Positions 32,801 to 63,655 of a DNA stretch of 64,000 bases are shown one piece after another. Position 1 is the first letter of the stretch; each line of letters starts with the position of its first letter. The position numbers and the translations under genes were made by a program. The DNA lies in NCBI RefSeq assembly GCF_044704955.1, contig NC_091984.1, positions 117,676,001 to 117,740,000 of the forward strand. Reading direction: 5' to 3'. This stretch comes from Pristiophorus japonicus. Taxonomy: Eukaryota. The notes beneath the pieces are model-generated. The model was not told where the DNA came from, made no database searches, and worked only from the letters and a program-made list of their open reading frames with translations.

Positions 32801-33975
32801 ATCCATGTGGACTACGCAGGTCCTTTCATGGGGAAAATGTTTTTGGTAGACGCCTACTCCAAATGGATCGAGTGTGACATTTTAAATTCAAGCACATCCT
32901 CTGCCACGGTAGAAAGAATACGGGCAATGTTCGCCGCCCACGGTCTACCGGACATCTTGGTCAGCGACAATGGCCCGTGCTTCACAAGCACTGAATTCCA
33001 GGACTTCATGGCAGGCAATGGAATTAACCATGTTAGAACGGCACCGTTCAAGCCGGCCTCAAACGGCCAGGCAGAACGAGCAGTGCAGATAATCAAACAG
33101 GGGATGCTCAGATTCCAAGGGGGTTCCCTACAAACCCGCTTAGCACGCCTCCTGTTGGCCTATAGATCCCGACCACACTCGCTCACAGGGGTTCCACCCG
33201 CAGAGCTACTAATGAAAAGGATGCTCAAAACCCGGTTATCCATTATACACCCCACCATGAAAGAAATTGTCGAGAGCAGGCGCCAGTCACAATATCGCTA
33301 CCATGACAGGAATGCGAGGGCACGATGTATTGATGTAAATGATCCTGTTTTTGTCCTCAACTACGCTGCAGGGCCGAAATGGCTTGCAGGCACTGTGGTT
33401 GCCAAAGAGGGAAATAGGATTCTGGTAGTTAAACTTACCAATGGACAAATCTGCCGCAAACATGTGGATCAAACAAAAAGGAGGTTCAGCAACCCCATAG
33501 AAGAAGCAGAGGAAGAACATGATATAGAGTTCACTCCACCACAGGTGACCGAACACCGGAACCAAAGGGAGGAGAGCCCAGTCACTGTGGGTTGTCCGGA
33601 CAGGCCTGAGGCACCGCAAACAGCAGACACTCAGGCCTGCGCCCAACAACCGGAGCCCCAACTCAGGTGCTCTACAAGGGAGCGTAAACCACCAGAGAGA
33701 CTCAACCTGTGATCCCAATAAGACTTTGGGGGGGGAGGTGATGTCATGTATTCAACCAGCATTGTAACCCATGTATAAACTGACCTAAGTTGTACACCGT
33801 GAGAACACTGACCACTAGGTGGGAGGCACTCCTAACCTGGACCTTCAGGTATAAAAGGGGAAGCTCCACCCACCTTCATCACTTGAGTGCTAAGGAATAA
33901 AGGACAGGTCACAGACTGACCTTCTCTCAAGCATGGGCCTCGTGTGTATTTATACTGTGTAGCAAGGACGTATCA
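29862..33975 (+). mobile_element. Gypsy LTR retrotransposon copy B (young, gag-deleted)
   Basis: LTRs 29862-30095 and 33742-33975 (TG..CA, 5 differences in 234 bp); TSD CAGAG; PBS TGGCGACAAG; G-rich PPT at 33728-33741. Confidence 0.97.
30173..33712 (+). pseudogene. Gypsy Pol (PR LDTGAS, RT FQDD, RNase H, integrase) with one premature stop
   Basis: ORFs 30173-30751 and 30776-33712 share one frame, separated by a single TGA at 30749-30751 where copy A has an Arg codon. Confidence 0.93.
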
Positions 33976-36515: not shown

Positions 36516-39500
36516 TATAGTATATGGTTTTATTTTGGTAGGGGGTGTTTTTGTGACTTTGCTGCAGCAAAATCTATGACTCATCATTTGCCATTGTGTC
36601 TTGTGCATCATTCCAACGTTCACCGGAGATGTGCCTTTATGGGGGCACATAGTGTGTCCAGTATTAGCTCCATCCCTCAGTTTCCTCCATTTAGGAGAAC
36701 CGGTCCATTATGAGCTGGCGACATACGACTGTTGGTCCGGCAGCATCGCCATGCTGCCTCCCCCATGGATGGGGTGGCTATCCAATGGGGGCCTTGCCAG
36801 GCTCCTCTCCATCGTCCTGCTCCTCCTGAGGTGGGCCTGCAATTCCCACTGGCAATGCCTGACCCAACATGATGGCCAAGCACACCAGGCAACATGCAGC
36901 ACACCACAATGAATTTGGATACCTGTTGAGGGGAATATTGAAGGCTGCCTCCAGAGTGGTGCAGGCATGGGTCTGCCTGTAGGAGATGGCATATCTCTGT
37001 CAGCACTTCCTTTCAGAAGTGCAGCCATCTCACACACTGCTCCTCAGAGAGCTGGAGATCTGAGCGTTGGTGCCTGTAAGCCTGCGGGGAGTAAGCCCTC
37101 TTCCTCAGATGTCTTCGATCTCTCATTATCCATGGGCCGACATGGCCAAGAGTCCTTCCTCTAGCTTGACATCGCCTGGCAATAGCATGGAGCATGATAT
37201 GCTGGCAAACTATTAATGGCCCCATTAAATTCTCTCACTAAAGTTGTAAGGGCACTGTAATGGCAGATAAAAGTGAAGTTTTCAAGTTGGAGCTTCACAC
37301 AGCATTATGTGCGCAACGGTTGTAGTCAAAATGACCTAGAAACATAGAAACATAAAAATTAGGTGCAGGAGTAGGCCATTTGACCCTTCGAGCCTGCACC
37401 ACCATTCAATAAGATCATGGCTGATCATTCACATCAGTACCCCTTTCCTGCTTTCTCTCCATACCCCTTGATCCCCTTAGTCATAAGGGCCATATCTAAC
37501 TCCCTCTTGAATATATCCAATGAACTGGCATCAACAACTCTCTGCGGCAGGGAATTCCACAGGTTAACAACTCTCTGAGTGAAGAAGTTTCTCCTCATCT
37601 CAGTCCTAAATGGCCTACCACTTATCCTGCGTCCCCTGGTTCTGGACTTCCCCAACATCGGGAACATTCTACCCTATGGCATCTAACCTGTCCAGTCCCC
37701 TCAGAATCTTATATGTTTCTATGAGATCCCCTCTCATCCTTCTAAACTCCAGTGAATAAAGGCCCAGTTGATCCAGTCTCTCCTCATATGTCAGTCCTGC
37801 CATCCCAGGAATCAGTCTGGTGAACCTTCGCTGCACTCCCTCAATACCAAGAACGTCCTTCCTCAGATTAGGAGACCAAAACTGAACACAATATTCCAGG
37901 TGAGGCCTCACCAAGGCCCTGTACAACTGCAGTAAGACCTCCCTGCTCCTATACACAAATCCCCTAGCTATGAAGGCCAACATACCATTAGCCTTCTTCA
38001 CCACCTGCTGTACCTGTATGGCAACTTTCAATGACTGATGAACCATGACACCTCCCCTTTTCCTAATCTGCCGCCATTCAGATAATACTCTGTCTTCGCG
38101 TTTTTGCCCCCAAAGTGGATAACCTCACATTTATCCACATTATACTGCATCTGCCATGCATTTTCCCATTCACCTAACCTGTCCAAATCACCCGGCAGCC
38201 TCTTAGCATCCCCCTTACAGTTCACACCGCCACCCAATTTAGTGTCATCTGCAAACTTGGAGATATTACACTCAATTCCTTCATCCAAATCATTGATGTA
38301 TATTGTAAAGAGCTGGGGTCCCAGCACTCAACCCTGCGGCACTCCACTAGTCATTGCCTGCCATTCTGAAAAGGACCCGTTTATCCCGACTCTCTGCTTC
38401 CTGTCTGCCAGCCAGTTCCCTATCCACGTCAGTATATTACCCCCAATACCATGTGCTTTGATTTTGCACACCAATCTCTTGTGTGGGACCTTGTCAAAAG
38501 CCTTTTGAAAGTCCAAATACAACACATCCACTGGTTCTCCCTTGTCCGCTCTACTGGTTACATCCTCAAAAAATTCCAGAAGATTTGTCAAGCATGATTT
38601 CCCCTTCATAAATCCATGCTGACTTGGACCGATCCTGTCACTGCTTTCCAAATGCGCTGCTATTTCATCCTTAATAATTGATTCCAACATTTTCCCCACT
38701 ACTGATGTCAGGCTAACCGGTCTATAATTACCCGCTTTCTTTCTCCCTCCCTTTTTAACAAGTGGTGTTACATTAGCTACCCTCCAGTCCATAGGAACTG
38801 ATCCAGAGTTGATAGATTGTTGGAAAATAATCACCAATGCATCCACTATTTCTAGGGCCCCTTCCTTAAATGCTCTGGGATGCAGACTATCAGGTCCTAG
38901 GCATTTATCGGCCTTCAATCCCATCAATTTCCCTAACACAATTTCCCGCCTAATAAGGATATCCTTCAGTTCCTCTGTCGAAATCTCGACCTCAGAAAAG
39001 AATGACTCCGACACTTACAGCTCCGATAGAAGTTTCCCTTTTAATTTACTTGCTCGCAAGGGGTAGGTTTCACTCAGTCAAGGGCTAAATGAACACCTCC
39101 GCAATGGTACAGCTTCACAAGATATTTATACAGTAAAACCCAAGTTCTGGCCTCTCCCTGTGTATTGCTCTGTCTCACAGTCAGTGAATACAGATAAAGA
39201 GTTAATTACTATATCCTGGTCCTGACATGGTGTCAAGATATTTCCTTTTGTCAGGGTTATCAGAAAGCCAAACGGCCATTACTCCATGAGTCATAGGTAA
39301 TGGGCTATCACCTGTCTTGTATTGTGTCAGGATTATCCAATTTCCTGGTCAGTTTACCTGTTTGCTTCAAATGGATGAGGTAAAGGAAAGAGATAATGGC
39401 TAGAAGATAAGGGTGGGGTGACATGGAACTCCTGTAGTGTAGACAATAGGAGAGCACCATGGGGGGTTACTTGTCTCAGCATGACTTGTCTCCTAGCTGT

Positions 39501-39683
39501 CTGATAACCATCAGCCATCTAACAGCAGGTTTAGCTGTTTATGCAAGCTGGCTGCTAAAATGCAGAAAGTTCTGGAAGGGCCAGGACTCCATTTTAATCA
39601 AAAGGCACACAAATACCGTATGGTATCAGCTTAGATAAAAATACTTTTCCACATTCCCCCATTTTGTCCTTCACAAGGACAAC

Positions 39684-40900
39684 TCAATCCATTCTGATCT
39701 TGTACAGTCTCTCCATTTCCATTTCTACACAAGAGCCTTCAGCAGTTGTTGCTACCATAACTCTAGCCGTGGTCTCGGTAGGTAACATAGTTTCTCCAAC
39801 CCTGGCACAGCAACACTTAATGACGACAAATAATAGATACAGGGCGAAGACTATCAGCAGGAATATGATCAAACCCTGTACCACAGATTTCCCCAGGGCT
39901 CCCAACCATCCTGATGCCCAACCCCACAAGGTGATACCGTCCTGGCCAACTGTCTGTTTATACTCTATTACCTTTTTCCTGATTTATCCCTTCAAAGGCT
40001 TGGGAAGTTGCTGATTCTACTAAGTTAGCCAGTTCCCGTAACTGCCATTCGGTCGATGCTATTCCATAGGGTGGCACCATTACCTTGAATATTCCGTTTA
40101 GCCACGTCAAATCCCGTTTAAATCTGTGGCTTCCATAGGCCTCCCTTAGAGTCCTTACTGATCTGATAAGGGGTACCACATATCCTAAGTAACAGGACCC
40201 TGTCCAGTTGGCTGGTAACCATGGGTAGGCTTTATGGCCACAAATAAAGTAGGTGCAATTATAGGACGTCAGCTCCTGGTCCTTTCGCACTGTCCCTACT
40301 CGAGTGGTCTCACCTTCCCACCCTTCACCTGGGGCTTTGTTATGGACCGTTGTCCAGCCAACGGTTGCTATCTTTCTCTCAGTGGGATTAGTTGTGGCTT
40401 GCCATTTAATCATTTGGGAACACTTGCTGCGTCCCATTTCTGGTCCTTTTGTCTCATTACTCACTAGGCATATTATACCCTCAGGATTTCTTATTCTGGG
40501 AGTAATGCTTAGGAAGGGAGGCTGATGGTTATTATCATAATTGGGCTGGTACCATCCCTGGAAGGCTGTAAGTTTATACCCTGCCGACCTCCATTCTGTT
40601 TGCTCCTTCGTTTCTGGCCCCTTAGTTAGTTTTGTCCTGTTTTGCACTGTCAACCATTCTACCATTTCTGATTCGTTAAAGGGGACGGATCTCAGGGGAA
40701 TACCCCCCTGGAGTGGACAGGTACATGGGAACATATCCAACAACTCGACAAGTTTCTTTCTTGAGCATACCTATGACTCAGTGCCATAAATACGTTTACG
40801 TGCAATTCCCTTCGGTGGTGGGTCTGTACCCCTGGTGTAATCAATAATGCGAAGTAAAACCCTGTCAAGCCCAGCACCATCAGTCCCCATAGTCCATACA
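39684..40900 (-). pseudogene. ERV env remnant (gamma-type)
   Basis: Hydrophobic leader, CWIC (CXXC), WLPANWTGSCYLG, furin site RFKR, fusion peptide, TM anchor; ISD/CX6CC region absent; frameshifted. Confidence 0.85.
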
Positions 40901-40909
40901 GTTCCTTAT

Positions 40910-43138
40910 TCAGTCTTCCTTTTTCTGTTCCTCTGATTCCTTCGTCCCTTCCTCCTGGTCGGGTGCCCGTTTGCAATGGGATGCGTGGATCCATGTTGGT
41001 CTTTCCTTTACCTTGATTGCAGTATTGGTCGCCAGCAGGACCTGGTATGGTCCTTCGAATCTTGGCTGTAGACTGCTTTTCCTTTTAAAAATCTTGATGT
41101 AAACGAATTCCCCTGGCTCCAGGTTATGACACTTCCCTTCCGCTGGCTTGACTTGGGCTTCCTTTACCTGTGAATGAAAGCTGGAAATACATTTGGTTAG
41201 TGCAATACAATAATTCAACATATTTTCCTCCATTTTGTGGATGTCCATCTGTTTTGCAGTAAATGGTGCTGTAAAGGGTAGTCATTGGGGACGTCCCATA
41301 ACTATCTCATGTGGTGACAGACCTGTTGTTCTGTTGGTTGCAGATCGCATTACCATCAAAGCTAAGGGCAGCAGTTCTGTCCATTTCAGTCCAGTGTCAT
41401 TGCATAGTTTTGCCAGCTTATTTTTAAGCATTCCATTATATCTTTCAACAAGTCCAGCTGATTGTGGATGATAACTGCAATGAAAACGTTGATTAATCTG
41501 TAAAGCTTTACACATTTCTCTTATGACAGTTCCCGTGAAATGTGACCCGTTATCACTGGAAAGCTTAGCAGGGATTCCGAAGCGCGGTACAATTTCTTTT
41601 AGCAAACATTTAGCAACAGTAGTGGCATCGGCCTTTTTACATGGAAAGGCTTCAATCCATCTAGAGAACACATCTACAATAACTAATACATACTTGAATC
41701 CCATACACATAGGTAATTCAATAAAATCCATTTGTAAATGTACAAAAGGCCCGACTGGATTTGGGTGGGAGGCAGATTCTACTTTTTCCGTCTTACCCGG
41801 ATTCATTGTCTGACAGGTAACACAATTTTCACAGATTTGTTTTGCAATTGCCGAAATACCTGGTGCATACCAAGTTGCCAAAATATAATCTGCCAATCCC
41901 CCTTTGCCTGCATGTGTGAATGTATGAACACATCGGGCAATCCATGGAAGTAAGGATCTAGGGGCCACCACGCGGCCGTCATGGTGAACCCATATTCCTT
42001 CTGGATTTTTATAACATTGATCCTTCGTCCAGGTCACCATCTCCTCCGTGCTGGCCTATGTCTGAAAGGCCAGCACGTCATTAATAGTGGGTGGCGGGTC
42101 TGAGCAATTATTTTTCCTTAGTGGGAACAATGACACCTGCATCCCCCCTTTCGACAGAGCTGCTGACTTAGCTGCATTATCAGCTCTGGCATTCCCAAGT
42201 GCCACCTCATTCGACTGGCCTGTATGTGCTTGGCATTTGATAATGGCAAGTTTCAAAGGGCATTGAATGGCTCGCAGGAGATTTTCCACTTGTTCTGCAT
42301 TTTTGATAGGGGTTCCTGAAGAAGTCAGGTACCCGCGAATCTTCCAAATTTGTCCATAGTCATGTGATACCCCAAAAGCATACCTGGAGTCAGTGTAGAT
42401 ATTAACTGTGTGTCCTTCAGCCAGAATACAGGCTCGAGTTAACGCAAACAATTCGGCTTGTTGGGCTGAAAAGGAGTCTGGAAGAGAGGCTGTTTCGACA
42501 ACATTAAACTGAGTTACAATTGCATAAGCCGCTCTAGGTTGGCCCCTATCATTTCGTAAGGCTGATCCGTCAACATAGTACACTAGATCAGGATTACACA
42601 TTGGTACATCTGTTAGATTGATACGTGGTTTAGTCACTGATTCGGTTACCATTTCACATGAATGGGGTTCGCCGTCGTCTTCCGTGGGGAGTAGAGTGGC
42701 TGGATTTAAGGTAGTACATCTTTTGATGACAAGGTTCGGATTTGATAACAGTTCGACCTCGTATTTAGTGGTTCTTGCGGAGGTTAGGTGTTGGGTGGCA
42801 CATTTAGTAAGTAAAATCTCGACAGAGTGTGGGATATACAAAATGGTCTGATGATTTAGAGTTATTGGCTGAGCCTGTTGCATAGCATAATAAGCTGCTG
42901 CCAACGAAGGAAGACATCCTGGTAGTCCGCGTGCCACTGGGTCTAGTTGGGTACTGAAATACGCTACCGGTCGCTGCCTGTCCCCATGTAACTGAGTCAA
43001 AACAGATTGTGCAAAACCCGACTTGTGATGCACAAATAAGTTGAATAGCTTAGTGTAATCTGGTAATCCCAAGGCGGGTGCTGAAGTGAGGGATTGTTTA
43101 AGGTTCTGGAAAGCATTCCGGGATACTTCATTCCACAT
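40910..43138 (-). pseudogene. ERV pol remnant: tether, RNase H (YVDGS, AQQAEL, YTDSRY), integrase (HHCC, LQMDF, SSDNG, GPY)
   Basis: Three ORFs in one frame separated by two point stops; no PR or RT palm motif seen upstream. Confidence 0.9.
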
Positions 43139-46100
43139 CCTTGAAGCATTGTGAGAATATTTGTGTGGGCTTCTGAACTGGACGAATCTGTGTGTTACAC
43201 GGACTTCTCATTTATGCTTATGGTGATTCACAGATCACAGAATGTAAAGTACTTGTTTTCTAATTTTATTAAAAGGCTTCCAAACCCAAGATTTTTCCAA
43301 TACACCCAAAATGTTGATCAAGAGATCACCTGAAATATCTCAAAATCCCAATTCAACTATTGTACTGCCACTCTTTATCAAAAAAAATCCTCTTACTGAG
43401 CTAGAAGCTTTTGTACCAAGAATTTACGCCAAGGACAATGAGAGTGTACTCCCCCAGCCTGCACCTCGAGAGACCCACAAAGGCTTTTTTAAAAAAAAGG
43501 CATTACAACTTTTAACCACCGGGACCATGTCTCAACAAACCTATCCTTTGTGCATTTCCTAGCTCCGTAACCTCTCATCCGAATAAATCCACGCTTCTAA
43601 CTTAAAATGTCTTAAACTTCCCACATACAGGACAACACTATGAAGGGTTAAAAAAACTTCACTTTGTTTGAAAAAGTGGGTGGAGCTAAAACAAACAGGC
43701 GGTTCCACAACCTTTCCAAACAGGCTTCCAGACACAAGGAAAAAAGACAGAAGCACTCTCATTCAAAGACAAGACATTCACGCACTCTCATTGAAAGACA
43801 AGACATTCACAAGTCTCTCTCCATTCAATAAAGCTTTTTCTTTTGCTAGCTTCATTTTTTTTTTTAATCCATAAGTCACTATCAGGTTCTCTTTTTTTTT
43901 TACATTTGATTTACTTCCTCTGTTAATTTTACATGGACTTGAAGAATCGGAACCCAGGCCTTTTCTATTACTTTCCTTTTTTTTTTCTACCTGGATCTCT
44001 GTTTATAAGACACTCCTGGAGACAAGTTGTTCTCTCTAAATTAAATGAACCATCGGGTGGAAATGGCCTGTTTTCACCCTTAGTCCACTTTACCGTTTTT
44101 GTTTCTTTGGTCAATTGAAGACTGACCACAATTCTGGAGCATGACATAGGCTGGTGTGCCTTTTGTGGTGTTTTAACTTGCTCCGGCACCCATTCTGGAT
44201 GATTAAGATTTTCCCACAGTTTCTGATCTCACAATCCTTTCGGCCAACCGAGTTCTCTACGCCCACTTCTCCTGGCCGTTACGTGGCCTGAAAAGGCTCT
44301 TAATTCGGGCTCAGTCTGGGTGTGTGAGAGATGTTGGCACGAACCAATCGTAGTTGATCAATCAGTTACTGTTTCTTTTCCTAATCAATCCTTGTGTTTT
44401 TTTTTTTCGAATCACAACTTTCCCGAGTGACTCTTCCCGTTTCTCTAATGGCAATGACTCATAAAGGTATTGCACACGACAGTAATACAAGGACAACAAA
44501 CAATATTCCCGTGAGTACACAAATCATAACCTCTAAACAAATTCTCAGTCTGCGTTGTACGCCACTACAGACCGAGTCCTTAACTTATCCTAATAACAGC
44601 TGATAAAACTTAAGGTTCCGTACCCAAACTCTTTGATCGATTGCGCTCTTTTTTTTTAATAGTCTTATCACATAAGAACCCCTTCCGAATTAAAAACAAT
44701 AAAAATCTTATCACATAAGAACCTTCGATCGATTAGCGCTTTCTTTTTTCTTTTTTTTTTTAATAGTCTTATCACATAAGAACCCCTTCCGAATTAAAAA
44801 CAATAAAAATCTTATCACATAAGAACCTGGAACTCTTTTCGATCGACTAGCGCTCCCTTACCTACTGAAACCTTCCCCGGGCTGTCTCGAGATTTTTTCC
44901 AGAACCTGTTCTCTTCTGCTGGCGAGCTGAGAAAGAAATGGTTATAAAAAAAATACCTTTAACTTTTAAATGCCGAGTCTTGTAGATGCAGTACCTCAGC
45001 TGTGGACAACAGATTACATCTGCGATTCAACAGTGAAGAAACCTCTTGTGAGCAAAGGCTCACCTTGTTTGGCCACCGAAGCCTTTCACTGGAGAGGCAC
45101 TATGCCTGTATCCGTTTTACTCACAGAACAGAGAGTATGCATCTCGGTGGAACCTCCAATAACTGTCCATATAACTCCAATAACCCCCCATGGGGGGTTA
45201 CTTGTCTCAGCATGACTTGTCTCCTAGCTGTCTGATAACCATCAGCCATCTAACAGCAGGTTTAGCTGTTTATGCAAGCTGGCTGCTAAAATGCAGAAAG
45301 TTCTGGAAGGGCCAGGACTCCATTTTAATCAAAAGGCACACAAATACCGTATGGTATCAGCTTAGATAAAAATATTTTTCCACACCTCCTTCTTACTAGA
45401 TACTCAGTCCCCTAGTACTTCCAGAAGGTTATTTGTGTCTTCCTTCATGAAGACAGAACCAAAGTATTTGTTCAATTGTTCTGCCATTTCTTTGTTCCCC
45501 ATTATAAACTCACCTGAATCCAACTGCAAGGGACCTACGTTTGTCTTCACTAATCTTTTTCTCTTCACATATCTACAGTCAGTTTTTATGTTCCCGGCAA
45601 GCTTCTTCTCGTACTCTATTTTCCCCTTCTTAATTAAACCCTTTGTTCTCCTCTGCTTAATTCTAAATTTCTCCCAGTCCTCAGGTTTGTTGCTTTTTCT
45701 GGACAATTTATATGCCACTTCCTTGGATTTAACATTATCCTTAATTTTCCTTGTTAACCATGGTTGAGCCACCTTCCCGGTTTTATTTTTACTCCAGACA
45801 GTGATGTACAATTGCTGAAGTTCATCCATGTGATCTTTAAATGTTTGCCATTGCCTATCCACCGTCAACACTTTAAGTATCATTTGCCAGTCTATTCTGG
45901 GCAATTTACGCCTCAAACCATCAAAGTTACCTTTCCTTAAGTTCAGGACCCTAGCTTCTGAATTAACTATGTCACTCTCCATCTTAATAAAGAATTTTAC
46001 CATGTTATGGTCACTCTTCCCCAAGGGGCCTCGCACAACAAGATTGCTAATTAGTCCTTTCTCATTACACATCAATCAGTCTAGGATGGCCAGCTCCCTA

Positions 46101-50958: not shown

Positions 50959-53684
50959 TCATCGACGTCTGCCCTTGTTGACAGTAGGCTCCCGAGGTAT
51001 GGAAAATGGTCCATGTTGTCCAAGGTCTTGTCATGGATTTTGATAATCGGGGGGCAGTACTGTGTGCTGGGGGTAGGTTGGTAGAGGATCTTTGTCTTAT
51101 GGATGTTTAGTGTAAAGCCCATGCTCTCGTACACTTCGGTGAAGGTGTTGATGATAATTTGGAGTTCGGCCTCCGAGTGTGCGCAGACACAGGTGTCGTC
51201 TGCATACTGTAATTCAATGCCAGAGGGTGGGACGACCTTGGATCTGGACTGGAGGTGACAGAGGTTGAAGAGTTTCCCGTTTGTTCTGTAGATTAGCTCC
51301 ACTCCAGCGGGGTGCTCACTGAGGGTGAGATGGAGCATTGCAGCAAGGAAGATCGAGAAGAGCGTTAATGCGATGACACAGCCTTGCTTGACCCCGGTCC
51401 GTACATGAATTGGGTCTGTGGTGGATCCGTTGGTCAGGTTTACATGTCATCGTGAAGCAGGCGGAGGATGGTGACAAACATTTGCGGGCAATTGAATTTG
51501 AGGACACTCCATAATCCATCACGGTTGACAGTGTTGAAGGTCTTTGTGAGGTCAAAGGCCATTTACAGAAGTTGGTGCTGCTCCCTACATTTCTCTTGAA
51601 TTTGATGCGCAGTGATGATCATGTTCACTGTGCCCCTAAGTGGGCGGAATCCGCATTGCGACTCTGGGAGGAGCTCTTCAGCCACTGGGAGACGGTGATT
51701 GAGGAGGGTTCTTGTGGCAGACAGCAGAGAGACTCCTCCGTCATTACCGCAATCGGACTTGTCACCTTTCTTGAAGATGGTCACGATTGCGGTGTCTCTG
51801 AGATCTCCTGGCATGTTCTCCCCTTCCAAATAAGAGAAATGAGTTCATGGATTCATGCCAGTAGTGCTTCTCCGCCATGCTTTAGTGCTTCGGCAGGGAT
51901 TCCAGCTGCTCCTGAGGTCTTGTTGTTCTTTCAACCTCATGCTGGACTGGGGTTGTGCTGAGGTGATGGCGAGTAGCATGCTGCGGGATGGAGTCGAGGA
52001 CATTCACGTCGAAGACAGAGTCTCGGTTAAGAAGATCTTCGAAGTGTTTCTTCCAGCGGGCCCTAACTGCCTCACTGTCCTTGGTGAGCACCTCTCTGCT
52101 CTTGGCCCTCAGTGGGGTAGGACCTTGGGTGCTTGGGCCGTAGGTAGCCTTGACTGTGCTAAAGAATCCACACACGTCATGGTTGTCGGCTATTTGCTGG
52201 ATCTCCTCTGCTTTCTCCACCCACCATCTATTCTTTTGGTCGTGAGTTTTTTATTGGACTTCGGCCTTCAGACAGCTATAGAGCTGCTTTCTTGCTCTCG
52301 AGTTGTGTTGCTGTTCCCAGTTCAAGAATGCCTTGTGCTTACGACTTATTAGCTCCTGGATCTCCTGGTCATTCTTGTCGTGCCAGTCTTGGTGTTTCCT
52401 GGTCGGGTGACCGAGCGTCACTTCACAGGTGCTAATTATGGAGGCCTTGAAGGCAGACCAGGCACTGTGGACACTCTTCATCTTTGGATCACTGGGAGTC
52501 ATCAGGTTGGTTGTGAGGCACTGGCTGAATAGGGCTTTCTTAGCAGGGTCTTTAAGTGATCCAGTGTTGATTTTCCTGCAGAATTGTTTCTGTTGCCGCT
52601 GCTGTTTTGGGACTACATTGATGGAGATGACAGAATGGATTAGGCGGTGGTCCGTTCAACAGTTGTCCACTCCTGTCATGTGCATGTCCTTGCGGTCCCT
52701 CGCTCGGACAATGACGTAGTCTAGCAGATGCCAGTGCTTGGAGCAAAAGTGTTGCCATGAGGCCTTGTATTTGTCTTTCTGATGGAACAAGGTGTTGGTT
52801 ATGACAAGATCATGTTGTAAGCATTTCATCAGGAGGAGGGTACCGTCGGGGTTGGCTTTCCCTACCCCCTCTCTGCCGATCACACCTCCCCTGAGGTCTG
52901 TGTCCTTTCCAACTCTGGCGTTAAAGTCACCAAGAAGAATCAGCTTGTCGCCCGGTGGGGCTCGGGTCAGGGATTGATCAAGGCTGGAGTAGAATTCCTC
53001 TTTGGTCTCATCTGTAGCTTCCAGTGTTAGGGCGAACGCACTGCTGACTGTAGCGCACTAGTTCTGGGCTAGGGTGAGCCGAAGGGTCATGAGGAGTTTG
53101 TTTATCCCACAAGGGAGTCTCTGAGACGGCCAACTAGTTCATTTTTTATGGCGAAGCCCACCCCATGGAAGTGGCGTTCTTCTTCTGGTTTACTTTTCCA
53201 GAAGAAGGTGTAACCATCACCTTGTTCCTTGAGCTGGCCTTCCCCTGCCCTCTGAGTCTCGCTTAGAGTGGCGATGTCTACATCGTAACGTCTGAGTTCC
53301 TGGGCAATGATAGCGGTGTGGCCTTCCGGTCTGTTGCTGTTGGGGTTGTCCATGAGGGTCCTGACGTTCCAGGTCCCGAACTTCATTTTAAAGGATGGAA
53401 AAAGTCTATGCGGGAATTTTTTTAACGTGGGGTGGACGTTGCACACCAGCCACCACACGGGTTCAGCAAAGCAAAATCTTGGTCCAGTGGCAAGGGGATC
53501 CAAGATGTCTGGAAACCAGGCTCCACTGCATGGGCCTCGTTCATACACACACACATACTCCCACTGCCCTCCTTCCCACAGGTCCTCTCTCTCTGGGACT
53601 TATAGGACCTCGCTGTTGGCCCGTACTGTTCCTTCCCTGGGCCCCGACCCCACTGCTGGTCCATGCTGCGACACTCCTGGGCCC

Positions 53685-54110
53685 TGACCTCACCGCTCCC
53701 GAACTCCGCTTCCGACCTCTGGACCTTGGCTCTCCTGGCCTCCGCTCCTCGCCGCTCCCGACCTTCGAACCTCGCCACTTCCGACCTCTGCTCCCGACCT
53801 CCGCTTCCGATCTCTGGACCTCGTCGTTCCCGGCCTCCGCTCCTTGCAGCTCCTGACCTTCGGACCTCGCCGCACCCAACCTCCGCTCCCGACCTCTGGA
53901 CCTCACCGTTCCTGACCTCCGCTCCCAACTTCTGGACCTTGCCACTCCCGACCTCCTCTCCCAACCTCTGGACCTCGCCGCTCCCGACCGTTGGACCTCG
54001 CCGCCCCCAACCTCCGCTCCCGACCTCCGCTCCTGGCCTCCGCTCCTCGCTGCTCCTGACCTCAGCTCCTCACTGGACCTGATCTCCGGACCTCACCGTT
54101 CCTCCCGCCG
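53685..54110. repeat. GC-rich degenerate tandem repeat (CCTCCGCTCCCGA / CCTCTGGA units)
   Basis: Directly visible; lies upstream of the RTE ORF on minus. Confidence 0.85.
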
Positions 54111-56403
54111 CTGGGCTTGAGCTTGCTCCAAGATACGCCACCAACCTGGTCGTCACCCTTCAATTTTGTCGGCCTCTCTGGTTGGCTTGCGCTTCTCCCT
54201 GCAATGGCTAGCTCCTGGTGTCTCCCACCAGGTTTGGTCGGTGCCATGCTGAGTCCTGGGGCACTGCTCTTCTTATCCCCGGTGTTGCTCCTGGTGTCTT
54301 CAACCAGGTCGGCTCGGCACTGTTCGATTTACAAGTATGATTTACGAGGATGTTGCCAGGACTGAAGGATTTTAGCTATGAGGAAAGATTGGATAAGCTG
54401 GGGTTGTTTTCTTTGGAATAGAGGATGATAAAGGGAGATTTAATTGAGGTGTATAAAATTATAAGGGGCCTGGATAGAATGGATAGGAAGGACATATTTC
54501 CCTTAACAGAGAGGTCAATAACCAGGAGCATAGGTTTAAAGTAATTGGTAGAAAGATTAAAGGGGAGTTGAGAAGAATTATTTTTACCCAGAGGGTTGTG
54601 GGGTTATGGAACTCATTGCTGGAAAAAGGGTGGTAGAGGCAGAAACGCTCATCACATTTAAAAAGTAGTTGGATGTGGACGTGAGGTTTCATAACTGTTG
54701 TATATGTATACGATAGATATACTCTCTGTGTAGTCACTGTATAGTTGCATAAGATGGAGACTTGTTTACCAGATGTACCATCATCAAGGCTCACACTGTA
54801 TACACTATGCTGGCACCACCAGAGGGTGCAACTGGTGGAGGCCCAGGGGTCACCTGTACACCACAGGTACCCAGGTATAAAAGGGAGTCCACCATGTGGT
54901 ATCCTCACTCAGGAGTTACTTTAAATGGATTATGGACTTTCACGCGAAAATGGCTAACCTTGGTACGTTGCAGCATTTCGCCGATGGTGATGATTGGGAC
55001 ACCTTTGTGGAGAGGCTCGACCATTTCTTCACAGCAAATGACCTGGCAGGTGATGATCCGGCCACACTGGCTGATAACGCAGAGCTATCCTGCTCACCAG
55101 TTGTGGGCCCACAGTCTATGGCCTCGTCAGGGATTTGCTGGCACCAGCGAAGACAATGACCAAGACGTACGAGGAGCTTGTAACACTGATCCAAGAACAA
55201 GTCAAGCCCAAAGAGAGCATCCTCACAGCCAGACACCGGTTTTACACCCACTGACGGCCTGAAGGCCAGGAAATCGCGAAATATGCTGCAGACCTCAGGA
55301 GGCTGGCGGCACCGTGTGATTTCGGCGAACACCTCACCGAAGCACTGCGGAATATCTTTGTCATCGGAATCGGCCATGAGGGCCTTCTTCACAGGTTACT
55401 ATCTGCAGATACCACAGTCACACTGCAGAAGGCCATCACCGTGAGCCAGGCATTCATGATCTCGATCTGCGGCTCCAGGCGGATGACTCATCCTCAGGAC
55501 TCAGACCCGGCAAGTACTGTACACAGACTGGCACCTTTTAGAGGCAGGACTGTAGAACGTAAATCTCCTCAGGGGAGAGAGAACAAGTCCCTGAGTCCGT
55601 TAACTCTGAGTCCGCTGAAGGGGGCTAATCGGTTAGTGTCATGCTGGCATTGCGGAGGAAATCACCGGGCTCACGTGCTGTTTTAAAGACTATGTGTGCA
55701 AAGGGTGCAGCACAAAGGGCCACTTCCAGTGAATGTGGAAAAGAAATAGGATTCACTGTGTTGATGAAGAGTCTGCAGAGGGCCATGAATCCAGCGCGGA
55801 TTATGAAGAAGTGGTCAGAGAGGCAGCTCAACCCCACGATGAGGTGTGCGGAATGTTTAGCTGCACCCCAGAATGTTCCCCGTTGAGAATGGAAGTCGAG
55901 ATAAACGGCGTTCCAGTCTTCATGGAAGTGGACACGGGGGCGCACCAGTCAGTAATGAATCAAGAAGCCTTTGAGAGGCCATGGGACAATCAAACCGAAC
56001 GACCCAAATTGGTCCCAGTTCAAGCTAAACTGCTCACCCGCACCAATGAACTTATCCCAGTCGTTGGTAGTGCGGATGTAAAGGTACTCCATGATGGTGC
56101 GGTGCACAAGTTCCCACTGTGGATTGCTGCAAGGGATGGACCAACGCTACTCGGAGGAAGGTGGATGGAGAAGATCCATTGGAGCTGGGAAGATTTCATC
56201 CCTCCAGCGATCAATGTCCCCCATGCTCAGAGGTAAAACAAGCCCCCACCTGAGGTTGGACCCGGCACTAGAGAGCAGACTAGCACAGCACCCGAGGCGC
56301 AGACTGCTCAGCATGACTGCGTGGCGATGATCCAGCTGAGACGACCTGAACGCACCTTCCAGGCTCCAGTGGCAGGACACAGGAGGAAGAAAATTGGATC
56401 CAA

Positions 56404-59400
56404 AGGTAAAAAATGGGATGAGGTCCTACAAGAAGAATTTAGGGAGCTAGAAGCTAAATTAAAAAGTAGGATCTCAAAGGTAGTAATCTCAGGATTGCTA
56501 TCAGTGTCACATGCTAGTCAGAGTAGGAATAGCAGAATAGTTCAGATGAATACGTGGCTTGAGGAATGGTGCAGAAGGGAGGGATTCAAATTCCTTGGAC
56601 ATTGGAACCGGTTCTGGGGGAGGTGGGACCAGTACAAACCAGACAGTCTGCACCTGGGCAGGACCGGAACCAATGTCCTCGGGGGAGTATTTGCTAGTGC
56701 TGTTGGGGAGGAGTTAAACTAATATGGCAGGGGGATGGGAACCGATGCAGGGAAACAGAGGGAAGTAGAATGGGGGCAGAAGCAAAAGATATAAAGAAGA
56801 AAAGTAAAAGTGGAGGGCAGAGAAACCCAAGGCAAAAAGCAAAAAAGGCCACATTACACCAAAATTCTAAAGGGGAAAAGCGTGTTAAAAAGACAAGCGT
56901 GAAGGCTCTGTGCCTCAATGCGAGGAGTATTTGTAATAAGGTGGACGAATTAACTGCGCAGGCAGCAATTAACGAATATGATGTAATTGGCATCACAGAG
57001 ACATGGTTCCAGGGTGACCAAGGCTGGGAACTCAACATCCAGGGGTATTCAACATTCAGGAAGGATAGACAGAAAGGAAAAGGAGGTGGGGTGGTGAAGC
57101 TGGTTAAAGAAGAAATTAACTCAATAGTAAGGAAGGACATTAGCTTGGATGATGTGCAATCGGTATGGGTGGATTATGGAATACCAAAGGGCAGAAAATG
57201 TTAGTGAGAGTTGTGTACAGACCACCAAACAGTAGTAGTGAGGTTGGGGACAGCATCAAACAAGAAATTAGGGATGCATGCAATAAAGATGCAGCAGTTA
57301 TCATGGACGACTTTAATCTACATATAGATTGGTCTAACCAAACTGGTAGCAATGCGGTGGAGGAGGATTTTGTGGAGCGTATTAGGGATGGTTTTCTGAA
57401 CCAATATGTTGAGGAACCAACTAGAGGGCTGGCCATCCTAGACTGGGTGATGTGAAACGAGAAAGGATTAATTAGCAATCTTGTTGTGCAAGGTCCCTTG
57501 GGGAAGAGTGACCATAATATGGTAGAATTCTTTATTAAGATGGAGAATGACACAGTTAATTCAGAGACGAGGGTCCTAAACTTAAAGGAAGGTAACGTGG
57601 ATGGTATGAGACGTGAATTGGCTAGAATAGACTGGCGAATGATACTTAAAGGGTTGACGGTGGATAGGCAATGGCAAACATTTAAAGATCACATGGATGA
57701 ACTTCAATTGTACATCCCTGTCTGGCGTAAAAATAAAACGGGGAAGATGCCTCAACCGTGGTTACCAAGGGAAATTAAGGATAGTGTTAGACCCAAGGAA
57801 GAGGCATATAAATTGGCCAGAAAAAGCAGCAAACCTGAGGACTGGGAGAAATTTAGAATTCAGCAGAGGAGGACAAAGGGTTTAATTAGGAGGGGGAAAA
57901 TAGAGTAAGAGAGGAAGCTTGCTGGGAACATAAAAACTGACTGCAAAAGCTTCTATAGATATGTGAAGAGAAAAAGATTAGTGAAGACACACGTAAGTCC
58001 CTTGCAGTCAGAATCAGGTGAATTTATAATGGAGAACAAAGAAATGGCAGACCAGTTGAACAAATACTTTGGTTCTGTCTTCACGAAGGAAGACACAAAT
58101 AACCTTTCGGAAATACTAGGGGACCGAGGATCTAGTGAGAAGCAGGAACTGAATGAAATCCTTATTAGGCATGAAATTGTGTTAGGGAAATTGATGGGAT
58201 TAAAGGCCGATAAATCCCCGGGGCCTGATGGTCTGCATCCCAGAGTACTTAAGGAAGTGGCCCTAGAAATAGTGGATGCATTGGTGATCATTTTCCAACA
58301 GTCCATCTACTCTGGATCAGTTCCTATGGACTGGAGGGTAGCTAATGTAACCCCACTTTTTAAAAAAAGAGGGAGAGAGAAAATAGGTAATTATAGACCG
58401 GTTAACCTGACATCAGTAGTGGGGAAAATGTTGGAATCAATTATTAGAGATTAAATAGCAGCGCATTTGGAAAGTAGTGACAGGTTTGGTCCAAGTCAGC
58501 ATGGATTTATGAAAGGGAAATCATGCTTGACAAATCTTCTAGAATTTTTTGAGGATGTAACTAGTAGAGTGGACAAGGAAGAACCAGTGGACGTGGTGTA
58601 TTTGGACTTTCAAAAGGCTTTTGACAAGGTCCCACACAAGAGATTGGTGTGCAAAATTAAAGCACATGATATTGTACTGATATGGATAGAGAACTGGTTG
58701 GCAGACAGGAAACAGAGAGTCGGGATAAACGGATCCTTTTCAGAATGGCAGGCAGTGACTCGTGGGGTGCCGCAGGGCTCAGTGCTGGGACCCCAGCTAT
58801 TTACAATATACATTAATGATGTAGATGAAGGAATTGAATGTAATATAGTCAAGTTTGCGGATGACACTAAGTTGGGTGGCGGTGTGAGCTGTGAGGAGGA
58901 CGCAGGGTGACTTGGACAGGTTAGGCAGATGCAGTTTAATGTGGATAAATATGAGGTTTCTACTTTGGTGGCAAAAACACGAAGGCAGAATATTATCTGA
59001 ATGGCGGCAGATTAGGAAAAGGGGAGGTGCAACGAGACCTGGATGTCATGGTACATCAGTCATTGAAAGTTGGCATGCTGGTACAGTAGGTGGTGAAGAA
59101 GGCAAATGGTATGTTGGCCTTCATAGTTAGAGGATTTGAGTATAGGAGCAGGTTGATCTTACTGCAGTTGTACAGGGCCTTGGTGAGGCCTCACCTGGAA
59201 TATTGTGTTCAGTTTTGGCCTCCTAATCTGAGGAAGGACGTTCTTGCTATTGAGGGAATGCAGTGAAGGTTCACCAGACTGATTCCTGGGATGGCAGGAC
59301 TGACATATGAGGAGAGACTGGATCGACTGGGCCTGTATTCACTGGATGAGAGGGGATCTCACAGAAGCATATAAAATTCTAACGGGACTGGACAGGTTAG

Positions 59401-59742
59401 ATGCAGGAAGCATTTTCCCGATGTTGGGAAGTCCAGAACCAGGGGTCACAGTCTAAGGATAAGTGGTAAGCCATTTAGGACTGAGATGAGGAGAAACTTC
59501 TTCACTCAGAGAGTTGTTAACCTGTGGAATTCCCTACCGCAGAGAGTTGTTGATGTCAGTTCATTGGATATATTCAAGAGGGAGTTGGATATGGCCCTTA
59601 CGGCTAAAAGGATCAAGGGGTATGAAGAGAAAGCAGGAAAGGGGTACTGAGGTGAATGATCAGCCATGATCTTATTGAATGGTGGTGCAGGCTCGAAGAG
59701 CCGAATGGCCTACTCCTGCACCTATTTTCTATGTTTCTATGT
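56404..59742 (+). mobile_element. CR1 LINE (ORF1 esterase end plus ORF2) inserted in Gypsy copy C
   Basis: Same family as 37337-47170; tail CTATGTTTCTATG at about 59740. Confidence 0.95.
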
Positions 59743-60980
59743 TCCCAGCTTCGGTGGCAGAACCCGGGGAGAAGAGGATCACAGCAGCCGACATTGTGGA
59801 TGGAAGAAAGATGGCACCCAAACCACGAGGTGAAGCGCTGAAGAAAAAGATGGTGGCGGCCAGACCACGAGGTGCAGTGCTGATGGAGCAACACGTGGTA
59901 CCAAGTGAAGAAGAGGATTGGGGTAAAGATAGCAAGGCTCTCTTAAAGGAGTCCAGCAACCCACCCCACTTAAAGGGACAGTCCCACATTCTCACTCAAT
60001 GTAATAACTATGAGCCAAATGTAAAGCTTGTAACTAATGATCAGAATTTTATACATGTAATAAGCAAAGAAAAGTCAGGCGATTGCGATCGGAGCTACAG
60101 TTTATCCACAATAAACAATAAAACGTTGTGCGATGTTAGATTTCCACTGTATTCTGATATTGTAGCAGGCAAACACCCATCGGGAGCACACAGGTCCAGT
60201 GGGCTGCCCAATGCTGTAGCCTGCGTCCCTGGGACCAGAATGATGCACCATGGAGTATGGCCACAAGCAGCTAATATAGACAAGCTGCAGAGCAAGCGAT
60301 CTCAGGAAGACAACAGCACTGGTATCGATACCCTGCCTCTGATCGGCTCCACCTCCCAGGCACCCGATGGCACCAACTGCCACGAGCCCGAAAGTGCAAA
60401 CTGCGCTAAGGCGCAGCCCCCAGACTCTATCGCCACCAAGGCTACAGCCGGGAACGAAGGGTCACCCGCAATGGTTCTCCCAAATGGGACCGGGACCAGC
60501 CAGGATCCCAAACCAAATAACGCCCAGGCAAGCGCACTGCTAGACGACTGCTCCTCTGGGAGCAGCAGCGGTCCGGGGTGTAAGGAAAGGACAGGGATGT
60601 CACAGGCATTTGTCCAGTTGCCCACCACCCGGGTGGAGACAGCGCGGCCCCCAGACCCAGTTACCACGGCCAGGTCCGGGAGCGAAAGGTCAGAACCAAC
60701 GAGTTCCCCAAACGGGACCTGGAACAGCCAAGTTCCCACAACCGTTCAAGAGCAGGCAGAAGACTCTGCAGCCCTCAAAGAAGGACAGGGAGACCACACA
60801 CATCTGTGGCTCTGCCCACCACTAGGCAATGGCAAAGGCCCTGTGTCCTGGCAAGGTGACCGAACCAAGTCCACTCTGCTAGCTGGGGGCACAGCGCGCC
60901 ATCAGACGACTAGGACCCCGTTCAGTTGCTCTGGAACTAGCGTCCTCGCATACCTGCACCTACCCAATCCAGGTGCATGA
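59742..60980 (+). CDS. Unknown S/T/P/A-rich ORF (about 410 codons) internal to copy C
   Basis: Stop-free part of ORF 59679-60980 after the CR1 tail; no recognisable domain; expression unknown. Confidence 0.4.
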   Translation, partial: FPASVAEPGEKRITAADIVDGRKMAPKPRGEALKKKMVAARPRGAVLMEQHVVPSEEEDWGKDSKALLKESSNPPHLKGQSHILTQCNNYEPNVKLVTNDQNFIHVISKEKSGDCDRSYSLSTINNKTLCDVRFPLYSDIVAGKHPSGAHRSSGLPNAVACVPGTRMMHHGVWPQAANIDKLQSKRSQEDNSTGIDTLPLIGSTSQAPDGTNCHEPESANCAKAQPPDSIATKATAGNEGSPAMVLPNGTGTSQDPKPNNAQASALLDDCSSGSSSGPGCKERTGMSQAFVQLPTTRVETARPPDPVTTARSGSERSEPTSSPNGTWNSQVPTTVQEQAEDSAALKEGQGDHTHLWLCPPLGNGKGPVSWQGDRTKSTLLAGGTARHQTTRTPFSCSGTSVLAYLHLPNPGA

Positions 60981-61848
60981 CTGTAAAATGCAATGAATGT
61001 ATCTCACCAGTCAAATGTACTTGCCTCACAACTGTACCACAAATGCAATGATGTAAATGCAAATTTCCTTTTGTGGACTTGAACGTATATGAATGTATCT
61101 GAATGTGATGAGCCACCGGCATGAGCTACATATGGTGAGGGGGCGGGGAAATGGATCTATGTGGCCATGGACACACATGGATCACACCCAGAACCCACTG
61201 AAGCCCCATTGCATCATCGAACCATCCCAACTGGTTACCACTACCCAACGTTGTGGCAATAAGGACTTGGGGTTGACAGGGAGAGAGCCAAGCCAAAACA
61301 CAGCCAAGGTGCAAGGGCTATTGGCACTTAGGTCTTGGGAAAGCTAAGCCAGAGCACATAGTGCAAAGGTAATTGGCACAAAAGACTTGGGGGCGAGTGA
61401 TGTTGTATATGCAGACTATACATATACTCTCTGTGTAGTCACTGTATAGTTGCATAAGATGGATACTTGTTTACCAGATGTACCATCAAGAAGGTTCACG
61501 CTGTATACACTATGTTGGCACCACCAGAGGTTGCAACTGGTGGAGGCCCAGGGGTCACCTGTACACCACAGGTACCCAGATATAAAAGGGAGTCCACCAT
61601 GTGGTGTCGTCACTCAGGAGTTAGATTAAATGGACGAAGGTCACTACAGTACAAGTACAATACCTTGTCTTGTGGAGTCATTATCAGAGCATCTAAAGAC
61701 ATAACAATAACCTACAGGGCTACAGACCAACGGGCCAAAACTCAGCCTCTTGAAAAGGCCTCTTACCACTGGAACGCGGCGACCAAGTGCCGGAGTCGAG
61801 TGGCCGCCGCCAGCAGAATTGTCCTCGGGGTTTTTTTGCAGCGGTGCT

Positions 61849-63298
61849 CACTTCCACCCCGCTTCCCCCACTTCCACCCCTTCCCCCCCACTTCCACCCC
61901 TTTCCCCCTACTTCCACCCCGCTCCCCCCACTTCCACCCCTTTCCCCCCCACTTCCACCCCGTTCCCCCCACTTCCACCCCGTTCCCCCCACTTCCACCC
62001 CGTTCCCCCCACTTCCACACCTTTCCCCCCCACTTCCACCCCATTCCCCCCCACTTCCACCCCTTTCCCCCCACTTCCACCCCGTTCCCCCCACTTCCAC
62101 CTCTTCCCCCCCACTTCCACCCCGCTTCCCCCACTTCCACCCCATTCCCCCCCACTTCCACCCCTTTCCCCCCCACTTCCACCCCTTTCCCCCCCACTTC
62201 CACCCCGTTCCCCCCACTTCCACCTCTTCCCCCCCACTTCCACCCCGCTCCCCCCACTTCCACCCCGTTCCCCCCACTTCCACCTCTTCCCCCCCACTTC
62301 CACCCCTTTCCCCCCCACTTCCACCCCGTTCCCCCCACTTCCACCTCTTCCCCCCCACTTCCACCCCGCTCCCCCCACTTCCACCCCGCTCCCCCCACTT
62401 CCACCACTTTCCCCCTACTTCCACCCCGCTTCCCCCACTTCCACCCCGTTCCCCCCCACTTCCACCCCGTTCCCCCCCACTTCCACCCCGCTCTCCCCCA
62501 CTTCCACCACTTCCCCCCCACTTCCACCCCTTTCCCCCTCACTTCCACCCCGCTCCACCCACTTCCACCCATTCCCCCCCACTTCCACCCCTTTCCCCCT
62601 ACTTCCACCCATTCCCCCCCACTTCCACCCGTTTCCCCCTACTTCCACCCTGCTCCCCCCCACTTCCACCCATTCCCCCCCACTTCCACCCCTTTCCCCC
62701 TACTTCCACCCCGCTCCCCCCACTTCCACCCATTCCCCCTCACTTCCACCCCTTTCCCCCTACTTCCACCCCGCTCCACCCACTTCCACCCATTCCCCCT
62801 CACTTCCACCCCTTTCCCCCTACTTCCACCCCGCTCCACCCACTTCCACCCATTCCCCCCCACTTCCACCCCTTTCCCCCTACTTCCACCCCGCTCCCCC
62901 CACTTCCACCCCTTTCCCCCCCACTTCCACCCCGTTCCCCCCCACTTCCACCCCGCTCCCCCCACTTCCACCCCTTCCCCCCCACTTCCACCACTTCCCC
63001 CCCACTTCCACCCCTTTCCCCCTCACTTCCACCCCGCTCCACCCACTTCCACCCATTCCCCCCCATTTCCACCCCTTTCCCTCTCACTTCCACCCCACTT
63101 CCACCCATTCCCCTCCACTTCCACCCCTTTCCCCCTCACTTCCACCCCACTCCCCCCACTTCCACCCCTTTCCCCCTCACTTCCACCCCACTCCCCCCAC
63201 TTCCACCCCTTTCCCCCCCACTTCCACCCTGCTCCCCCCCACTTCCACATCACTCCCCCCACTCCCGCCACTTCCACCCCGCTCCCCCCACTTCCACC
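61849..63298. repeat. Minisatellite with a 19-21 bp unit CACTTCCACCCC(G/T)(T/C)TCCCCC, roughly 70 copies
   Basis: Directly visible; extreme C versus G strand asymmetry. Confidence 0.97.
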
Positions 63299-63655
63299 AG
63301 ACAAGGCTGAGGACAGCTCTGAGTATTGAAACCAAACTGACCATTGCACTCAACGTTTACGCAACTGGCTTTTCCCAGTCTGCAACTGCAGACATACCTC
63401 AGTTCTTTGCCCATCGCTCCATCCGTCAAGTCACAGATGCTCTCTACAGGAGAAGACTGCAATACATTTTGTTCCCAATGAGCAGGGAGAAGCAGGTGGA
63501 GCGGCAGACCGGATTTGTGCGGATTGCGGGGTTCCCCAGGGTGCAGGGGGCCATCGACTGCACACACGTCGGACTGATGGCGTCACAAACCCATGCTGAG
63601 ATGTTGATGAACAGAAAGGGATCCCTCTCCCTCAACGTTTAGCTGGTGTGCGACC
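63299..63655 (+). pseudogene. PIF/Harbinger (HARBI1-like) DDE transposase fragment
   Basis: KLTIALNVYATG, VTDAL, IAGFPRVQGAIDCTHV, NRKG.SLNV*LVCD; probable left terminus GGGCCAAAACTC at 61732. Confidence 0.88.

What the first reader, a model, noticed from the sequence alone, without database searches (positions are those of the whole stretch)
55733..61400. LTR element in which RT-RNaseH-integrase is replaced by a long unknown ORF behind the protease
After protease (..LLGGRWMEKIHWSW) the same frame continues through one TAA (56234-56236) into PPPEVGPGTREQTST..RRKKIGS. After removing the CR1 (56404-59742), the sequence resumes as about 410 stop-free codons rich in S/T/P/A, with a short internal repeat (KMAPKPRGEA / KMVAARPRGA). 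No YxDD, RNase H or D,D35E motif is visible. Weak echoes of Pol (NNYEPNVKLVTND vs TLYDPCKKLVLTCD) hint that it could be extremely diverged pol rather than captured sequence. It remains open while gag in the same copy carries several lesions. Inference: a Gag-PR-X polyprotein in which X is a repurposed or accessory, probably disordered, protein.
Basis: partly seen in the sequence, partly recalled or inferred. Interest (0 to 1): 0.7.

Follow-up and report, generated by a model that had tools for sequence, protein, structure and literature searches.

The report
Shark retrotransposon with eroded pol frame
The 'unknown gene' behind the protease is not new DNA but the worn-down remains of the element's own reverse-transcriptase/RNase H gene; it has lost its enzyme parts yet is still readable without a stop, which suggests the element gains from being translated rather than from the protein.

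Summary
The anatomy is real: a Ty3/Gypsy-type LTR element (54696-61706, 5-bp target duplication, LTRs 16/234 different) with broken gag, a protease, a TAA, a CR1 insertion and a 412-codon open frame X (59742-60980). X is not captured or novel sequence. Codon-level alignment places X 59742-60509 colinearly and in frame on Pol residues 288-559 of the Gypsy element at 30755-33712 (RT thumb/connection, RNase H, linker; P~1e-6; other frames, 44 other Pols, ERV and CR1 frames not significant). The RT catalytic core and integrase are deleted, and X is padded by local duplications, one out of phase. A shark gene model (P0003) shows the same frame across the CR1 site. X has lost Pol-like constraint: identities are not enriched at conserved columns (7/20 vs 33/94), and a broad Pol profile misses it. 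The family is high-copy (29,235 contigs in one run). That this copy's X is open while gag is broken is unremarkable (P 0.11-0.29 for no stop), but frame retention through the long erosion suggests selection for an uninterrupted frame, as in IAP I-delta-1. Verdict: non-autonomous gag-protease element with a degenerate pol tail; modest interest.

The parts
54691..54695 (+). 5' target-site duplication (5 bp; repeated at 61707-61711); host site is the 3' end of an older CR1
54696..54929 (+). 5' LTR, truncated: its last ~70 bp and the primer-binding site are missing in this copy
   Evidence: 16/234 differences to the 3' LTR; other copies run from the LTR end into a PBS-like motif and the gag leader (table 7, 103 contigs in X1)
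54947..55732 (+). gag, broken: frameshifts near 55065-55078 and 55664-55686, stops at 55252 and 55730; two Cys/His knuckle remnants
   Evidence: 39-50% identity to gag of the element at 2869-7379
55862..56200 (+). aspartic protease with DTG motif
   Evidence: 43% identity over 53 codons to Pol residues 1-53 of the element at 29862-33975, nucleotide identity by codon position 0.64/0.75/0.34
56234..56236 (+). stop codon in the protease frame; the residues of P0003 at the matching place are not compatible with a stop in that frame
   Evidence: inferred from an ungapped block of the tblastn alignment
56237..56403 (+). start of the pol relic: 56315-56398 matches Pol 275-301 (end of RT palm/primer grip); the RT core (Pol ~100-272, with the QDD motif at 250-252) has no counterpart
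   Evidence: P 0.002, ORF frame only
56404..59743 (+). 5'-truncated CR1 LINE inserted later, same strand
59742..60509 (+). X, Pol-derived part: RT thumb/connection, RNase H and linker relic (Pol 288-559)
60410..60760 (+). in-frame internal duplication (60410-60530 vs 60641-60760) of the Pol ~500-559 relic
   Evidence: score 111, 500 shuffles max 65
60781..60980 (+). C-terminal part of X, partly an out-of-phase copy of 60587-60665; stop at 60978-60980
   Evidence: P 0.01; P0003 347-376 also aligns in a second frame, Z 4.5
60981..61400 (+). 3' non-coding stretch with three short tandem copies of the pre-PPT motif, then the polypurine tract
   Evidence: D3, D5
61401..61706 (+). 3' LTR, 306 bp, TG...CA

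Best explanation
A dead copy of a high-copy, non-autonomous Ty3/Gypsy LTR retrotransposon family of a shark. The family descends from a single-frame gag-pol element related to the Gypsy elements at 2869-7379 and 29862-33975. It kept gag and protease, lost the RT catalytic core and integrase by deletion, and the pol piece in between (RT thumb/connection, RNase H, linker) eroded by point changes and local duplications into X (shown). RT and integrase must come in trans from an autonomous element (follows from their absence; the partner was not identified). The frame of X stayed open in the propagating lineage although its amino acids were free to drift; the most likely reason is selection for uninterrupted translation of the Gag-PR-X RNA to near its 3' end (RNA stability, or coupling of the new Gag to its own RNA), with X cut off by the protease as a disordered by-product (inferred, about 55%; the identity of X as pol relic about 92%).
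For: Origin: P0003 74-337 hits Pol of 31589-32431 by tblastn, E 1e-4; X 131-256 vs Pol 412-545, 0 of 1,000 shuffles reach the score, and P0003 74-162 vs Pol 279-361, 1 of 1,000; codon-level alignment X 1-256 vs Pol 288-559, score 70 vs shuffles 33+-4, P~1e-6, only in the ORF frame; 0 of 44 metagenome Pol ORFs at P<0.01 and none of the ERV, CR1 or off-frame controls; P0003 60-200 also lands on the RT thumb of two independent metagenome Pols (Z 7.4 and 4.2). Loss of protein constraint: identity 7/20 at family-conserved columns vs 33/94 elsewhere, nucleotide identity 0.64/0.54/0.54 by codon position vs 0.64/0.75/0.34 in the protease; a 44-45-sequence Pol profile scores X and P0003 no better than shuffles; hydrophobic residues 20% vs 32%; the tail reads a duplicated segment in another frame. 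Frame retention: all Pol anchors lie in one frame across at least five changes of offset; five of seven full-length P0003 windows align in X's frame at Z 6.7-29.5; neutral substitution at 15-35% would give 3-7 stops in the matching Pol stretch; of the 12 indel rows shown, those shared by many contigs lie 3' of the stop (46, 17, 21 contigs in X1) and only one lies in X (8 contigs). Precedent: IAP I-delta-1, in-frame gag-pol deletion whose fusion protein acts in cis (PMC6466679, passage).
Against: Only two near-complete X sequences were available, and both are ascertained for being open; P0003 is a gene model that may be spliced. In this copy no stop since insertion has P 0.11-0.29 at 3.4-5% divergence, and a one-base indel near 60896 separates it from other copies. 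The 29 shown differences inside X (of 337 rows overall, 40 shown) are 11 synonymous, 18 non-synonymous, not different from neutral (P 0.16-0.27). One X5 contig carries three frame-changing deletions at 60376-60390. 20 of 32 indel rows were not shown and contigs are under 260 nt. Copy A's Pol fragments alone do not give a significant match (best P 0.07). Codon-position identities come from blocks chosen by nucleotide score and are inflated; column counts are small. No test of translation or of a cis effect was possible.
Confidence: 0.7

Rival explanations
1. X is a pol relic under no selection at all; it is open in this copy and in P0003 through inheritance, T-poor composition and ascertainment.
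For: No amino-acid constraint; neutral pattern of this copy's differences and P 0.11-0.29 of no stop since insertion; T only 16%; both open examples were found because they are open.
Against: Other frames hold 7-19 stops; 3-7 stops expected over the erosion from Pol; at least five offset changes against Pol and the large gaps against P0003 all keep the frame; no off-frame Pol match in the Pol-derived part.
Confidence: 0.27
2. X has become a functional disordered accessory protein (for example a particle-condensing or competitor-excluding tail) whose sequence is now conserved for a new role.
For: Blocks of X are well conserved between this copy and P0003 (X 295-373 and 37-80); directional loss of hydrophobic residues; family is abundant.
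Against: The conserved blocks are no closer than expected for copies of one repeat family; P0003 lacks the RNase H-core part of X; no synonymous excess; tail read out of phase from a duplicate; only 2 proteins among 1.84 billion representatives; no Atlas hit above 0.79.
Confidence: 0.13
3. X is captured host or foreign sequence that replaced pol.
For: No Pfam, profile or structure match to Pol; about 150 C-terminal residues have no significant Pol match of their own.
Against: Colinear in-frame match to the local Pol at P~1e-6; the unmatched part is largely internal duplication; no non-shark homologue.
Confidence: 0.03

Closest known systems
Ty3/Gypsy elements of the same window (2869-7379 and 29862-33975); 'Mag-like/K02A2.6-like' is a recalled label, not tested
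   Same: gag 39-50% and protease 33-45% identical; single gag-pol frame; X colinear with their Pol 275-559
   Different: Different LTR (no blastn match); RT core and integrase absent; remaining pol eroded
Mouse IAP I-delta-1 (PMC6466679, passage seen; primary paper PMC2413153 not held)
   Same: Non-autonomous LTR element with an in-frame internal deletion giving one fusion ORF; highly successful; translation reported to act in cis
   Different: IAP is a class II ERV; its deletion removes part of gag and pol and the remainder is not eroded; no cis effect shown here
Wheat Fatima subfamilies with gag and protease ORFs only (PMC6097303, passage seen); pol-less Athila families with ORFs under purifying selection (PMC2410132, passages seen)
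   Same: Non-autonomous Gypsy families that keep gag (and protease) and borrow RT and integrase
   Different: Plants; the passages describe pol as lacking, not as an open eroded tail
TR-GAG (PMC4350172, abstract and passages seen)
   Same: Short non-autonomous LTR element with gag
   Different: TR-GAG was selected for no similarity to protease, RT, RNase H or integrase and carries Copia-type gag; this element has a protease and a pol relic

Membership tests
Ty3/Gypsy LTR retrotransposon, non-autonomous | Two LTRs, TG...CA, with 4-6 bp target duplication | tested here: met
   5' LTR truncated at its 3' end
Ty3/Gypsy LTR retrotransposon, non-autonomous | Primer-binding site and polypurine tract | tested here: met
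   PPT before 61401; PBS missing in this copy but present in other copies (table 7); the tRNA it matches was not tested
Ty3/Gypsy LTR retrotransposon, non-autonomous | gag and aspartic protease of Gypsy type | tested here: met
Ty3/Gypsy LTR retrotransposon, non-autonomous | Order PR-RT-RNase H(-IN) | tested here: met
   relic order PR, RT thumb, RNase H, linker; Pol of copy B is closest to Ty3 RT in the PDB
Autonomous Ty3/Gypsy element | RT catalytic core and integrase present | tested here: not met
   no match to Pol 100-272 or 610-985
Mag clade (label recalled) | Placement by RT phylogeny with named Mag references | not tested
   the element has no RT core; no named references were fetched; searches gave no usable definition
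TR-GAG | gag only, no protease/RT/RNase H/integrase similarity | tested here: not met
   vs PMC4350172 passage
IAP I-delta-1-like cis-acting fusion | Translation of the fusion frame needed in cis for transposition | not testable with these tools
   no functional data
Accessory/captured ORF of an LTR element | No homology to pol | tested here: not met
Accessory/captured ORF of an LTR element | Amino-acid conservation among copies (dN/dS < 1) | tested here: inconclusive
   11 synonymous of 29 shown differences, P 0.16-0.27; these are mostly private changes of this copy

The most novel reading that the evidence does not exclude
A very abundant shark retrotransposon family has turned the middle of its own pol gene into a new disordered protein, translated as Gag-PR-X and selected for a role of its own (for example favouring its own RNA for packaging, or capturing RT and integrase of the helper element): a new gene born by erosion of pol inside a parasite of a parasite.
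Probability: 0.13. Interest if true: 0.6.

Novelty: new variant of a known kind. Interest (0 to 1): 0.3.

Why it matters
Non-autonomous LTR families that keep gag and protease are known. What is less usual is a pol remnant eroded beyond recognition by Pfam or a Pol profile yet still in one open frame. With thousands of natural copies in one genome, the family would allow a direct test of whether LTR retrotransposon RNAs are selected for uninterrupted translation independent of the protein made (RNA stability or cis-preference), a point shown so far mainly for IAP I-delta-1. It is also a caution: such relics give 'uncharacterized protein' and chimeric gene models in shark annotations (P0003, P0004).

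Tried and rejected
No whole genome is held, so copies could not be compared directly. Longer homologues of X: none among 8,000 candidates; longer homologues of the protease: none among 161 candidates at E 1e-10, a strict cut-off; both weak evidence. No relatives of copy-B Pol in viral contigs or, by exact peptides, in metagenome contigs. ESM Atlas on P0003: best feature score 0.79, TM at most 0.25 by query, nothing usable. AlphaFold2 on X from one sequence: pLDDT 36.6, not searched further. Broad Pol profile: no signal. My by-eye match of X 130-205 and of 60981-61200 to the integrase C-terminal domain was rejected (RNase H fits better; 3' stretch P at least 0.045 in any frame, not at that site). 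The post-TAA 55-residue segment alone does not match Pol at protein level, only at codon level. Free nucleotide alignment supports only the protease, 56244-56394 and 59745-60039. No RNA holder listed among the 8 runs: no evidence on expression either way; contigs cannot show expression or copy number. Earlier findings of the scan: nothing. Paper searches for this family or structure in sharks found none that describes it (listings only); the library lacks most subscription papers and Repbase was not searchable, so absence from print is not shown.
Full report
Observation. The element runs from 54696 to 61706 between a 5-bp target duplication; its LTRs differ at 16 of 234 comparable bases. The 5' LTR stops about 70 bp short and the primer-binding site is gone, whereas 103 contigs of run X1 continue from the LTR end into a PBS-like motif and the gag leader, so this copy is dead in cis. 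gag has two frameshifts and two stops, and a third stop follows the protease. A CR1 spans 56404-59743. The frame 59742-60980 is open for 412 codons while the five other frames hold 7-19 stops and shuffles a mean of 16.

Homologues. One protein among 7,066 candidates and two among 1.84 billion representatives match X, both labelled Pristiophorus japonicus by UniRef: P0003 (378 aa, 40% identity over 91% of X) and P0004, a tetraspanin model with 42 X-derived N-terminal residues. P0003 reads the segment before the CR1 site and X in one frame; its first 50 residues come from two other frames of the protease region, so that copy too is broken upstream and open in X, and its residues do not fit a stop at the place of the TAA. 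Contigs of four runs cover 29-30 of 30 bins; 29,235 contigs were laid in X1 with summed depths of 20,180-572,008 against 14-37 for single listed contigs. The tool warns that this is no copy number, but it indicates an abundant family, present under two organism labels.

What X is. tblastn of P0003 against the window gave an unexpected hit on the Pol of the Gypsy element at 30755-33712 (E 1e-4). Local protein alignments put X 131-256 on Pol 412-545 (0 of 1,000 shuffles) and P0003 74-162 on Pol 279-361 (1 of 1,000); X 1-130 and 260-412 were not significant alone, nor were 12 off-frame and reversed controls. A codon-level nucleotide alignment joins these into one colinear chain, X 1-256 on Pol 288-559, score 70 against 33+-4, P~1e-6, only in the ORF frame; 56315-56398 falls on Pol 275-301 (P 0.002). 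The match is specific: 0 of 44 metagenome Pol ORFs reach P<0.01, and off-frame Pol, ERV pol and CR1 frames are null; copy A's short Pol fragments give at best P 0.07. P0003 60-200 independently lands on the RT thumb of L050 and L026. Pfam places RT at Pol 142-300, RNase H at 363-497 and integrase from 613, so X is the RT thumb/connection, RNase H and linker; the RT core with its QDD motif and the integrase are absent. The rest of X is largely self-duplication: a 42-nt-spaced repeat near 59810, an in-frame copy 60410-60530/60641-60760, and an out-of-phase copy at 60781 onwards.

Constraint. The protease differs from copy B as a constrained protein does (0.64/0.75/0.34 identity by codon position); X blocks are flat (0.64/0.54/0.54), and identical residues are no more frequent at family-conserved columns (7/20) than elsewhere (33/94) (blocks were picked by nucleotide score, numbers are small). 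A profile of 44-45 Pols does not recognise X. Hydrophobic residues fell from 32% to 20%. The 29 differences shown inside X are neutral in pattern (40 of 337 rows were shown). So the fold is gone.

Why open. For this copy alone the question is weak: no stop since insertion has P 0.11-0.29; five lesions in 1,457 nt upstream against none or one in 1,236 nt gives a binomial P of about 0.05-0.15 (hand arithmetic), before ascertainment. For the lineage it is stronger: 3-7 stops are expected over 15-35% neutral change in the matching Pol stretch, all Pol anchors share one frame across at least five offset changes, P0003 keeps the frame across large gaps, and among 12 indel rows shown (20 hidden) the widely shared ones lie 3' of the stop. 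Against: one X5 contig has frame-changing deletions in X, a one-base indel near 60896 separates this copy from others, and both open examples are ascertained. I put selection for an uninterrupted frame at about 55%, drift at about 27%, a new protein function at about 13%. The mechanism (RNA stability or cis coupling of Gag to its RNA) is inference; the precedent is IAP I-delta-1, whose in-frame gag-pol fusion is reported to work in cis (PMC6466679, passage).

Comparison. gag-plus-protease non-autonomous Gypsy subfamilies are described in wheat (PMC6097303, passages), pol-less Athila families with constrained ORFs in Arabidopsis (PMC2410132, passages), and gag-only TR-GAG in plants (PMC4350172, abstract and passages). 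This element works like them and is not a TR-GAG by definition. The label Mag-like is recalled and untested. Listings of searches showed no description of this shark family or of an open eroded pol tail; no supplements were read and the library is incomplete.

Verdict. Real feature, different explanation: an eroded pol relic in a non-autonomous family, not a replaced or captured gene. New variant of a known kind; interest 0.3.

Noticed in passing
P0004 (matches window 59850-59975): A shark tetraspanin-4-like gene model begins with 42 residues 64% identical to X: either exonisation of this element or an annotation artefact.
   Followed up: partly
window 29862-33975: Young Gypsy copy (LTRs 5/234 different) with an open 985-codon Pol but about 500 nt of gag missing relative to the copy at 2869-7379: pol without capsid, the mirror image of the X family. 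LTRs are unrelated to those of the X element, so complementation is only a thought.
   Followed up: partly
window 2869-7379: Older, multiply frameshifted copy of the same Gypsy family with full gag (LTRs 20/247 different).
   Followed up: partly
window 39457-45384 (ORFs 41282-43207, minus strand): Element with a 99% identical 197-nt direct repeat pair (D14) and a pol fragment holding an RNase H-like tether, a second RNase H and integrase: looks like a young endogenous retrovirus (label from recalled domain order).
   Followed up: partly
window 61777-63310: Long C-rich tandem array of about 10-nt units (D1), which gives stop-free frames of over 600 codons by composition; followed at 63330-63650 by what looks like a Harbinger-type transposase fragment (recalled motif; no Pfam hit).
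   Followed up: no
window 61254-61392: Three short tandem copies of the motif that precedes the polypurine tract (D3/D5); a similar motif precedes the PPT of the element at 29862-33975.
   Followed up: no
window 53635-54098: Imperfect tandem repeats (D2) upstream of a minus-strand LINE endonuclease-like region.
   Followed up: no
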